In this document: positions 9,201 through 12,200 of the stretch, piece by piece
Position numbering within the stretch: position 1 is the first letter of the stretch
How the letters are laid out: every line of letters starts with the position of its first letter
Assembly: GCF_006345805.1 (NCBI RefSeq)
Contig: NC_042997.1
Location: forward strand, 100,688,001-100,752,000
Source: Octopus sinensis
Lineage: Eukaryota
DNA length: 64,000 bases
Direction of reading: 5' to 3'
Translations under genes and position numbers: made by a program
Notes under the pieces: model-generated
What the model was told of the DNA's origin: nothing
Seen by the model: the letters and a program-made list of their open reading frames with translations, nothing else
The model's database searches: none

Positions 9201-12200
9201 TACGTAGAAAAAAACGGAGATTGAAAAAAGGGAAAATTGAAGAATTTGAGGGTGAGAGGTGGGGGAAATTAAATGCGGTTTTTTCTTGCAGAACCAGAAT
9301 CTCCATACTCGAAAACGGGGGATTCTGTAAAAAAAAAAAAAATCAAAAGAAAGGGGGTGCGATCCACATTGTTTACATCTGCCATCAAATCCATACAAAC
9401 CATAATATGACTCACAAAATTGCACATTCTAGACACAGCTCTTACGCAAAACACTTTCAATTCAACATCACAAATCAAGCAGTAATATTTTTTGCACACA
9501 ACGCATATTCTGCAGCAAAAACTACTTGAATTGAATGTATATTAAAAACATAAAACAAAAGTCCATTCCAATATTTACAGGTATGAAAGTCTGTTAGATA
9601 CAGCCAGGAAAGCAGGTGTGATGAAAGGTGTCGTTACTGGTGCAGCTACTGGTATGTTTTGGTGCATAATTTATTGCTTCTTTGCCTTAGGATTCTGGTA
9701 CAGTGACAAACTTGTTCGCGATGATGATGCTGATATGAATGATGTGCTAATTGTAAGTAAAATAATGGCTATTATATTTTCTTGATTCATATTTGCGTTA
9801 TCTAAAAAAAAAAAAAAAATTAAGAATAATTTTATTATTCATGGGTTTTCATCGTGTTAGCTATGAAAACAACAAAACAAACAAAAAAACCTCTACCTCA
9901 AATGGCTCTGATAATGTTGAGCTTTAGTATTTTTTGTTGTTCTCACCAATTCATGAAGAAACGCAGGAGTGGCTGTGTGGTAAGTAGCTTGCTTACCAAC
10001 CACATGGTTCCGGGTTCAGATACATGGACTCAAGTTTCTGGGTATTGACCCGTCAATACCAAGAAACTCGAGTCCATGTATCATGTCAGGTTGGATATGG
10101 GAAGGATGGCTTCCCTTTGCAAATATTGATAGGGCACAGATAGTGCGTGAATAGCCAGCTGGAGGATGTGTCCTCCTGGGGCTACAAGCTACTGTAGCAT
10201 TGACCCTTATGTGGCAAATATACTTCCCGATAAGTATATATATATATATATATATATATATATATATATATATATATATATATATATTATATATATATAT
10301 ATATATATATATATCGGGGTTTTCCAAAGATCCGCCCATCCATTAGATTGCCCATAGCGTTCATTTGGATGGGCGTTTATTTGTGGTTAAAAGTTGAAAC
10401 AGAGTTAGTATTCTGGTTTGCATTCTCTTTAGACGTTCATTTGCTCTGTTCGACACTAGCCTTATTTCGTTGGAGAAGTAATGTAACGCCCTTTGATTGA
10501 CTTCCGCCATAGACTTTGTTGGCAATAAACATATAGATGCTAGCCACTGTGGTACTACCAAAGCTCGTTTTATTGTTGTGTTGTGAGTTAATGCTGCAGG
10601 AAAGGTGTTGAAAGCAATGATTATCCTTAAAGGATTGAAAACGTGCCTAAAATCAAGGTCCCAAAGAATATTTACTTAACAGTCTCCAACAGGGAGGATC
10701 GATAACATATAAACGATTGCAGCTGTGGGCTGACAAAGTGTTTGGGCAGAGAACAGCACAACTATTCCAGTACTAATCGGTACAACTATTCCATGCTAAA
10801 AATTCAGTGCTATTCATGGATGAATGCTCAGTGTGCACAAAAAAAAAAAAAAAAAAAAAAAGAAGCGGAGCTCCTAGAAGAGGTCAAACGTAGGAATACA
10901 ATTCTCAAACTTATACCTCTTAAAACAACATCTTACTTGCAGCCGTTAGATGTATCAATTATTGGTCCTTTCAAGAAAGCCCTTCATGCTGAATGGGAGA
11001 ATTAGTTTTCAAATGGCAAAAAGGAGTATACAAATAAAGGATATTGCAAAAAACCTTCTTATCAAGAGATAGAGAACTTTGTGACCCAAGCTGTTGCCAC
11101 TTTAAATAAAGAAACTATAAAGCGTGCTTTTGAATGTTGTGGAATTGCTCCTTGTGGACAGACTGTAGAACAAAGCCTCTTAAACTCACGCTTACAGGAT
11201 GATTTGTCTGGCCTTGAGGTAAGTGCGCCAGATGCACATAATGACAAAATTGAAGAAATATATGCTAGGAAAAGTTTTACCCAAAGTATCGATAGCGTTT
11301 TGTCTTAATAACTGATGAGATGCCGGAGCAGACTTCAGCCCGGGTATCCGAAACTCTAAATTTTATTATGACAACCAACTAGTTGTCACATATTATATAT
11401 ATATATATAAAATATCTATCTATCTATCTATCTATCTATCTATCTATCTATCTATCTATCTATCTATCTATCTATCTATCTATCTATCTATCTCTCTCTC
11501 TCTCTCTCTCTCTCTCTCTCTCTCTATATATATATATATATATATATATATATATATATATATATATATATATATATATATATATATACAAAATGAGAAA
11601 ATGGAGAAATATATCCAAATCAATCATCAACTATCAGATAATACCGAATCATATACTTTATTAAAACACTACACAATAGCAATGAGATTAGACATTAATA
11701 CAGTACAATAATTACAATCAATATGGTGAGATATAACTAAATAAATATAACAAGATATAAAAATACATTTACATTATAACTGACAGCTGTTTCGGCCATG
11801 AAGATAGGTATGTCTCATTTAACCTATTAGCCATATAATGCAGGTATAAATGAGACATTAACAAGAATATCTTACGGCCTCTTCGGAGATTCTAATGCAA
11901 GTATGAGTACAAACCCTAAAATAATTTACATATAAATATAAATATGAGTGCATACATACTCATATTCTTACATATATATACATATACACAATAAAACAAT
12001 ATAAATCAATATACATCAACAAACACAATAATGTTCCATATTGAACGCCACAGCTCCTCAACCAACATCAAGAAACCACAACAGACACACTCACACTCAA
12101 TGCAGGCATATATATTAAACAGTTCAATATATTAAAATGTGTCACTTCACAAAAAGCCAATAAAGTTAATACCACCACCATAGTACCATTCAAAGCAAAT

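What the first reader, a model, noticed from the sequence alone, without database searches (positions are those of the whole stretch)
10315..11390. pogo transposase fragment ending directly in a hammerhead, bounded by (TA)n on both sides
Seen: the DDE transposase remnant runs to ...SIDSVLS-TAA (11308). That stop lies inside stem I of a CTGATGA hammerhead (11300-11374), followed by about 15 nt and a TA tract. No pogo TIR is visible at either end. The ribozyme 3' side (GAAActct...attatgacaac...ttgtc) resembles the family at 32292-32377. Inference: either a chimeric unit in which a DNA-transposase cassette was captured and retro-mobilised by PLE machinery, or a chance pLTR insertion at the end of a dead pogo.
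Basis: partly seen in the sequence, partly recalled or inferred. Interest (0 to 1): 0.75.

Follow-up and report, generated by a model that had tools for sequence, protein, structure and literature searches.

The report
Dead pogo fused to Penelope scrap
This is ordinary transposon debris: a broken DNA transposon is joined, at this one place in the genome, to the end piece of a common ribozyme-carrying retrotransposon, likely because a deletion removed the DNA between them.

Summary
The pieces are real; the chimeric-unit idea is not supported. 10314-11257 is a dead, internally deleted copy of a small pogo family (DD35D, Passer-like). Its left TIR is present (10314-10338, after TA). All 36 other copies read go on past 11257 into the native C-terminus, and 32 of 36 show a right TIR. 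'...SIDSVLS-TAA' is not transposase. 11255-11292 is an inverted scrap of Penelope-like (PLE) reverse transcriptase (35/38 identical to a genomic copy), and 11292-11392 is the hammerhead end repeat (pLTR) of the same PLE family (488 probe hits; Hydra-clade motifs). Inverted pLTR beside a truncated RT, ending in (TA)n, is this family's usual insertion layout. The pogo-hammerhead junction is found once in 2.7 Gb, with 3 nt of microhomology. Best reading: the pogo jumped into (TA)n, the PLE landed at or beyond its right end, and a deletion (about 2.2 kb if it came later) fused them. The hammerhead has lost its stem III pair and is probably inactive. Ordinary nested debris in an ABCB intron.

The parts
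10236..10313 (.). (TA)n tract; its last TA (10312-10313) is the pogo's left target dinucleotide
   Evidence: Sequence; other copies also start right after TA, and L018 and L022 also sit in (TA)n
10314..10338 (+). Left terminal inverted repeat of the pogo element (25 nt, 22 as in the family)
   Evidence: the same sequence begins the other copies and its reverse complement ends them
10314..11257 (+). Dead pogo (DD35D, Passer-like) copy: internal deletion near 10506 that removes the DNA-binding domain and first catalytic D; frameshifts and stops; last ~480 bp with the right TIR missing
   Evidence: the internal deletion is shared with L002, a 1369-nt copy with both TIRs and TA on each side; 95.6% identical to the family majority, family median 95.3%
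11255..11257 (+). 3-nt microhomology (GAA) shared by the pogo and the inverted RT scrap; 7 of 10 letters agree over 11248-11257
   Evidence: Column table; pogo copies
11255..11292 (-). 38-nt scrap of PLE reverse-transcriptase coding sequence (reads DTLGKTF on the minus strand, just ahead of the YxDD motif), antisense to the pogo
   Evidence: 56 hits at <=3 mismatches, control 7; 26 of 29 fetched other loci are PLE RT; 35/38 to L068/L089, E 3e-9 pairwise
11292..11392 (+). 5'-truncated pLTR of the same PLE family, short (tail-less) end form; position 11292 is shared with the RT scrap
11300..11374 (+). Type I hammerhead: stem I 11300-11311/11363-11374, core 11312-11318, stem II 11319-11348, GAAA 11350-11353, family cut site after 11362; two G-to-A changes (11358, 11360) break stem III and its palindrome
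   Evidence: public contigs show G at both places at nearly full depth
11393..11589 (.). (TA)n/(TCTA)n/(TC)n/(TA)n microsatellite; the usual 3' neighbour of short-end copies of this PLE family, and possibly the other half of the pogo's original target
   Evidence: Sequence; for the family; the 'other half' is inference

Best explanation
The locus holds two unrelated transposon remnants joined at one unique junction, likely by a microhomology-mediated deletion, and it is predicted to be inert. Steps: (1) Shown: an internally deleted pogo derivative with an intact left TIR sits after TA; the same derivative exists elsewhere with both TIRs. Inferred: it arrived by cut-and-paste into a (TA)n tract. 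(2) Shown: 11255-11392 is all from one abundant Hydra-type PLE family, laid out as minus-strand RT scrap head-to-head with a plus-strand hammerhead pLTR that ends in (TA)n, the family's common layout. Inferred: a PLE copy inserted by target-primed reverse transcription into the (TA)n at or beyond the pogo's right end. (3) Shown: the pogo's last ~480 bp and the PLE's RT end, endonuclease, 3' UTR and second pLTR (~1.75 kb in L068) are absent from the window, and the join has 3 nt of microhomology. Inferred: one later deletion of at least ~2.2 kb by end joining removed them. (4) The open frame to the TAA is chance read-through; the hammerhead has lost the C15.2-G16.2 pair and has no partner copy for a dimer, so it likely does not cleave.
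For: Other pogo copies: 29 of 29 fetched loci and 7 of 7 more continue past 11257 into the native C-terminus; these include all 30 other genome-wide hits of a probe just left of the junction. Right TIR in 26 of 29 and 6 of 7; TA follows in 23 of the 26. No hammerhead in the 29 pogo loci and no pogo DNA in the 29 other hammerhead loci. A gapped pattern for pogo end plus hammerhead core within 90 nt gives 1 match, this locus; a junction-spanning query gives 1 spanning match among 42. One genomic PLE copy (L068/L089) explains both foreign parts: 35/38 to 11255-11292 reversed, and 88% to 11292-11392. An inverted hammerhead lies within 1.5 kb upstream of the RT in 7 of 29 other RT-probe loci (8 once a strand slip for L098 is corrected), in L092 within ~30 nt of the same spot. 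Paired ends are one long and one short in 7 of 8 distinct inverted pairs (L048 corrected by eye), so a lone short end lacks its partner. L002 shares the internal deletion and has both TIRs. Nested insertions are common here: 6 of 24 measured pogo 3' tails are 695-1124 nt against 405-513 nt in the other 18. Published: inverted 5'-truncated copies, one-ended tails and (TA)n targeting in PLEs (PMC8557442, passages and section 11); single and opposite-strand hammerheads from truncated PLEs (PMC4209133, parts 1-2 of 4).
Against: The order of events is not shown: no allele or orthologue with the undeleted or empty state was seen. 3 nt of microhomology in A-rich DNA is weak on its own. Many short-end hammerhead copies have no inverted partner within the 1.5 kb examined, so a missing partner here is suggestive only. 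Hammerhead inactivity is predicted from structure, not measured.
Confidence: 0.6

Rival explanations
1. Same two remnants, one step: the PLE primed in the (TA)n right of the pogo, copied only the pLTR and an inverted RT scrap, and its 5' end was joined to pogo DNA ~480 bp upstream at the GAA microhomology, deleting the pogo's right end during insertion (insertion-associated target deletion). Also inert debris.
For: Very short inverted insertions exist in this family (adjacent head-to-head hammerhead pairs such as L032, L035, L041/L056); microhomology at both internal joins. Target deletions on retrotransposon insertion are recalled from L1 work, not from a call.
Against: In paired insertions both outer ends are pLTR ends, mostly one long and one short (7 of 8; also L066). 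Here the left outer end is mid-RT sequence, which fits later loss better.
Confidence: 0.33
2. One reading: PLE machinery captured a pogo transcript by template switching and moved transposase plus hammerhead as one unit.
For: The pogo frame is on the same strand as the hammerhead and stays open to a TAA in stem I. PLEs can carry host genes in trans (PMC8557442 passage; Terminons, PMC6431247 passages).
Against: One copy only. The left end is a complete TIR abutting TA, as cut-and-paste leaves it. The internal deletion is shared with a two-TIR copy, so it is no mark of an RNA step. The TAA region is the PLE family's standard sequence, and an antisense RT scrap separates the two parts.
Confidence: 0.03
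3. Assembly mis-join between a pogo copy and a PLE copy.
For: The junction is seen only in this assembly.
Against: The geometry is the family's own biological layout; the pogo part carries private changes rather than matching another copy (closest 92.7%); the surrounding ABCB exons are in order.
Confidence: 0.04

Closest known systems
pogo superfamily, Passer family (PMC7386202; passages seen)
   Same: HTH_Tnp_Tc5 plus DDE_1, DD35D spacing, TIR under 40 bp, TA target duplication, ~2.2-2.6 kb longest copies with nested insertions
   Different: This copy lacks the DNA-binding domain, the first catalytic D and the right TIR. BrkDBD was not found in the one N-terminal fragment scanned. No tree was built, so Passer is a motif-based call.
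Penelope-like elements, Hydra clade (PMC8557442; section 11 read)
   Same: RWK, DKT, CxCX5C linker, CxxC and CxH, C-terminal GIY-YIG-like domain without cysteines in the core, canonical hammerhead, (TA)n targets, inverted 5'-truncated pLTR, tail at one end
   Different: Only 138 nt of the element remain at this locus. Full ORFs (L117, L118) are from a sister subfamily, 79% identical over 162 aa of RT.
Type I hammerheads of metazoan PLE pLTRs (PMC4209133; parts 1-2 of 4 read)
   Same: Conserved core, long stem II, minimal palindromic stem III made for dimers, single and opposite-strand copies across the genome
   Different: This copy has lost the stem III pair and the palindrome; stem I is 12 bp.
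Terminons, PLEs that capture genes ahead of a 3' hammerhead (PMC6431247; passages seen)
   Same: A coding remnant lies 5' of a hammerhead end
   Different: No telomeric repeat, no repeated unit, no Athena RT; the coding part has its own TIR and is a single copy.
Non-LTR retrozymes (bioRxiv 10.64898/2026.07.22.740005; part 1 of 5 read)
   Same: Non-coding type I hammerhead unit related to pLTRs
   Different: Not a tandem array; joined to RT sequence of its own PLE.

Membership tests
pogo superfamily | DDE_1 catalytic domain | tested here: met
   Window fragment E 6.7e-6; L005 E 4e-25
pogo superfamily | HTH_Tnp_Tc5 DNA-binding domain | tested here: met
   L025 and L011; deleted in the window copy
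pogo superfamily | Short TIRs with TA target duplication | tested here: met
   Right TIR in 32 of 36 other copies, TA after it in 23 of the first 26; window copy has the left TIR only
Passer family of pogo | DD35D spacing | tested here: met
   35 residues between the second and third D, counted in the L003 and L005 frames; criterion from PMC7386202. Shared with Fot, which mostly has TAA targets and longer TIRs
Passer family of pogo | BrkDBD (optional second DNA-binding motif) | tested here: inconclusive
   No hit in one partial N-terminal fragment (L025)
Passer family of pogo | Placement in the Passer clade by phylogeny | not tested
   No reference transposases were fetched
PLE, Hydra clade | RWK motif and DKT in place of DKG in the RT N-terminal region | tested here: met
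   L117 and L118, 717-aa frames: RWK at 45, DKT at 122; criteria from PMC8557442 section 11; link to the window's subfamily
PLE, Hydra clade | CxCX5C linker; CxxC and CxH around the conserved E and N; no CCHH cysteines in the GIY-YIG core | tested here: met
   L117, L118; same motifs in L068/L089 and L066
PLE, Hydra clade | C-terminal GIY-YIG endonuclease | tested here: inconclusive
   Pfam GIY-YIG E 0.013 and 0.042 in 2 of 2 long fragments, below the curated cut-off; no hit in 2 shorter fragments
PLE, Hydra clade | Hammerhead in the pLTR, insertion in (TA)n, inverted 5' copies, one-ended tail | tested here: met
PLE, Hydra clade | Placement by RT phylogeny | not tested
   No reference PLE proteins were fetched
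Type I hammerhead ribozyme | CUGANGA and GAAA core with stems I and II | tested here: met
   fold of 11298-11374 z -2.1, 8 of 200 shuffles as good
Type I hammerhead ribozyme | Stem III pair 15.2-16.2 and palindromic loop 3 | tested here: not met
   Window has A at 11358 and 11360; 25 of 30 family copies keep G at the 11360 position and only the window copy has both changes
Type I hammerhead ribozyme | Match to an Rfam hammerhead model | tested here: not met
   None at gathering score or at E<=10
Type I hammerhead ribozyme | Self-cleavage | not testable with these tools
   Needs an in vitro assay
Chimeric retro-mobilised unit (Terminon-like capture) | Several copies with the same junction and different flanks | tested here: not met
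   1 copy
Chimeric retro-mobilised unit (Terminon-like capture) | Loss of the captured element's DNA ends, variable 5' truncation | tested here: not met
   Full left TIR after TA

The most novel reading that the evidence does not exclude
A Hydra-type PLE switched template from its own RNA onto a transcript of a non-autonomous pogo at a GAA microhomology and inserted the chimera once: a single caught event of a DNA-transposon cassette moved by Penelope machinery.
Probability: 0.03. Interest if true: 0.4.

Novelty: new member of a known kind. Interest (0 to 1): 0.06.

Why it matters
As found it matters little: nested transposon debris of two known kinds in an intron. It is a clean example of how a read-through frame and a hidden 38-nt antisense RT scrap can mimic a designed gene-ribozyme fusion. 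The by-product of more use is that this genome holds a very large Hydra-type PLE population with uninterrupted 717-aa frames, which could serve to test how one-ended tails, inverted pLTRs and (TA)n targeting arise. Had the chimera been a repeated unit, it would have shown DNA transposons moving by Penelope reverse transcription.

Tried and rejected
Rfam: no hammerhead model matched; the E<=10 hits were TA-repeat artefacts and two weak chance matches. First idea for the 34-nt linker, a unique filler: a probe over its left edge found only this locus and one unrelated 2-mismatch place. Second idea, a decayed piece of the pLTR's upstream part or of the pogo tail: weak scores (4 of 500 shuffles for pLTR upstream; 26 and 68 of 300 for the pogo tail). 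Both were dropped once a shifted probe showed it is PLE RT. Internal deletion as a spliced intron (sign of a retrocopy): rejected, since L002 has it with both TIRs. Displaced remainder nearby: no pogo tail and no more of the L068-type PLE body in the 64-kb window. Public runs: 24 listed, none holding half the words; no RNA holder listed on record. In 6 distinct runs laid (contigs only) no listed piece bridged either join; 1403 and 810 pieces were not shown, so this says nothing for or against the allele being in those samples or being transcribed. Loose ends there read the normal pogo continuation after 11257 (X2, X3, X8, X12) and the RT continuation after 11292 (X5). No relatives' genomes are held for G000, so the cross-species check was not possible. 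Earlier findings of the scan: none. Literature: a search for nested insertion + Penelope + microhomology + deletion + DNA transposon gave 0 papers; Penelope-like + gene capture + transposase + hammerhead gave 1 review; these two searches are too narrow to show that nothing is in print. Supplements of the papers (Hydra alignments) were not opened and could refine the clade call.

Full report
What is there. Between two (TA)n tracts the window holds a transposase remnant (Pfam DDE_1 at 10706-11002, E 6.7e-6) and a type I hammerhead motif: stem I 11300-11311/11363-11374, CTGATGA 11312-11318, GAAA 11350-11353. The frame 11006-11308 does end in a TAA inside stem I. Rfam lists no hammerhead here. The locus lies on the sense strand of an intron of an ABCB-type transporter gene, with exons at 20-229, 9581-9753, 24440-24580 and 30769-30981 among others.

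The pogo part. A search of the window's own genome (G000, 2.7 Gb) with 10315-11392 gave 65 matches from 40 scored of 1230 candidates; every match but the window's own stops at or before query position 943, window 11257. All 29 other fetched loci go on there into the same native C-terminus and 3' UTR. A 25-nt probe just left of the junction has 31 places in the whole genome at <=3 mismatches: this locus, 23 among those 29 loci, and 7 fetched afterwards, all 7 of which also continue normally. A right TIR was found in 26 of 29 and 6 of 7, followed by TA in 23 of the first 26. The left TIR is present in the window at 10314-10338, 22 of 25 letters as in the family, right after TA. So the statement that no TIR is visible is wrong for the left end. 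Longer copies encode HTH_Tnp_Tc5 and DDE_1 with 35 residues between the last two aspartates (counted), which with short TIRs and TA targets fits Passer (PMC7386202 passages); no tree was built. The window copy lacks the DNA-binding domain and first aspartate through an internal deletion near 10506. L002 has the same deletion with both TIRs and TA on each side (1369 nt), so this derivative moved as DNA. The window copy is as diverged as its family (95.6% to the majority, median 95.3%).

The foreign part. 11292-11392 belongs to an abundant family: 54 matches from 40 scored of 1190 candidates and 488 places for a 22-nt probe at <=1 mismatch, control 0. None of 29 other fetched loci has pogo DNA within 1.5 kb, and none of the 29 pogo loci has the hammerhead. 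The family is a pLTR: in L066, L068, L065 and others it follows a GIY-YIG-like frame and a TG-rich 3' UTR. The 34 nt between pogo and pLTR first looked unique. Depth over it in public contigs and a loose end at 11292 suggested a repeat, and a shifted probe gave 56 places at <=3 mismatches against 7 for the control. Of the 30 loci fetched, 26 of the 29 others are PLE reverse transcriptase read on the opposite strand, just ahead of the YxDD motif. One genomic copy, L068/L089, matches 11255-11292 reversed at 35 of 38 and 11292-11392 forward at 88%. Thus 11255-11392 is all PLE, and the residues after 11257 up to the TAA are not transposase. The joins show microhomology: GAA at 11255-11257 (7 of 10 letters over 11248-11257) and one A at 11292.

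Which PLE. Two uninterrupted 717-aa frames from a sister subfamily (79% over 162 aa of RT to L089) carry RWK, DKT, a CxCX5C linker, CxxC and CxH, and no cysteines in the GIY-YIG core. These are the marks of the Hydra clade, which is described as carrying canonical hammerheads and inserting into (TA)n (PMC8557442 section 11). Pfam GIY-YIG support is weak (E 0.013 and 0.042). Inverted 5'-truncated copies and a tail at one end only are described for PLEs (same paper, passages), and opposite-strand and single hammerheads from truncated PLEs in PMC4209133 (parts 1-2 of 4). AT-rich cleavage and internal priming were shown in vitro for another PLE (PMC11167929, passages). The same layout is seen here: an inverted hammerhead upstream of the RT in 7 of 29 RT-probe loci, 8 after correcting a strand slip for L098; one long and one short end in 7 of 8 distinct inverted pairs, with L048 corrected by eye and L041/L056 counted once. 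The window's end is the short form, which in this family is mostly followed directly by simple repeats. The two (TA)n tracts therefore each have their own explanation and do not mark one unit.

Is the junction repeated? No. A junction-spanning query gave 42 matches, only the window's own crossing it (40 scored of 623 candidates), and a whole-genome gapped pattern for pogo end plus hammerhead core within 90 nt matched once. Copies of this pogo often carry later insertions: 6 of 24 measured 3' tails are 695-1124 nt against 405-513 nt in the rest.

Mechanism. Shown: the parts, their families, the orientation, the missing pieces, the microhomology, the single copy. Inferred: the pogo derivative was pasted into (TA)n; a PLE then inserted at or beyond its right end as a minus-strand body with an inverted pLTR; a later end-joining deletion removed the pogo's last ~480 bp and about 1.75 kb of PLE (RT end to pLTR, measured in L068). 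I put this at 0.6. A one-step version, with the deletion made during insertion, is at 0.33; both give inert debris. Mis-join is at 0.04 and the retro-mobilised chimera at 0.03. The hammerhead differs from its family majority at 4 of 101 places; two of these break stem III and its palindrome, and only this copy of 30 has both. PLE hammerheads are thought to work as dimers and cleave poorly alone (PMC4209133), so this one is likely inactive; that was not measured.

Limits. No related genomes are held. Public runs gave no RNA holder on record and no listed contig bridging the joins, which decides nothing. DNA searches score only the best 40 candidates, so old or short copies may be missed; the pattern scans are whole-genome but need the probe to be conserved.

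Verdict. Observation partly confirmed; chimera not supported; ordinary nested debris of a Passer-like pogo and a Hydra-type PLE. Interest 0.06.

Noticed in passing
G000 genome-wide; L117:796-2946 and L118:2288-4438: Hydra-type PLEs are very abundant: the endonuclease query drew 62,238 first-look candidates (150 scored, all matching), and two copies have uninterrupted 717-aa frames. The clade description lists only a few mollusc families.
   Followed up: partly
window 20-63707, + strand: ABCB (P-glycoprotein-like) transporter gene with exons spread over the whole window; the finding lies in one of its introns, on the sense strand.
   Followed up: partly
window 11762-11905, - strand: A second, unrelated hammerhead motif with a CCGAAGA core and a very long stem II (fold z -2.9), tail-to-tail with the one studied across the same microsatellite; suggests the tract drew two PLE insertions.
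   Followed up: partly
window 17500-19650 (also 14767-15657 and 20441-20714): A more distant, decayed PLE on the - strand (RT and endonuclease) with hammerhead motifs at 17560 (-) and 19593 (+): the full layout that the studied locus has mostly lost.
   Followed up: partly
window 32190-32380: Head-to-head pair of hammerheads from a sister subfamily, both with C in place of U in the core (CCGACGA and CCGAAGG), intact palindromic stem III and GUC site.
   Followed up: partly
window 35165-38158, + strand: LINE-type endonuclease-RT frame broken by a single stop (576 aa + 421 aa); a nearly identical RT piece lies in L030, which points to recent activity. Family not tested.
   Followed up: no
L002 (G000:C2:54242825-54244192 region): 1369-nt non-autonomous pogo derivative with both TIRs and the same internal deletion as the window copy.
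   Followed up: yes
window 10330-10375: Subterminal hairpin just inside the pogo's left TIR (fold of 10315-10400 z -2.8), conserved in other copies.
   Followed up: no
window 10760-10862: Private changes in this pogo copy: a 24-nt insertion that repeats neighbouring sequence and an A-run expansion of about 22 nt.
   Followed up: no
window 10134-10209: Short repeat with fold-back structure that also occurs as an insertion in the 3' UTR of pogo copy L004.
   Followed up: no
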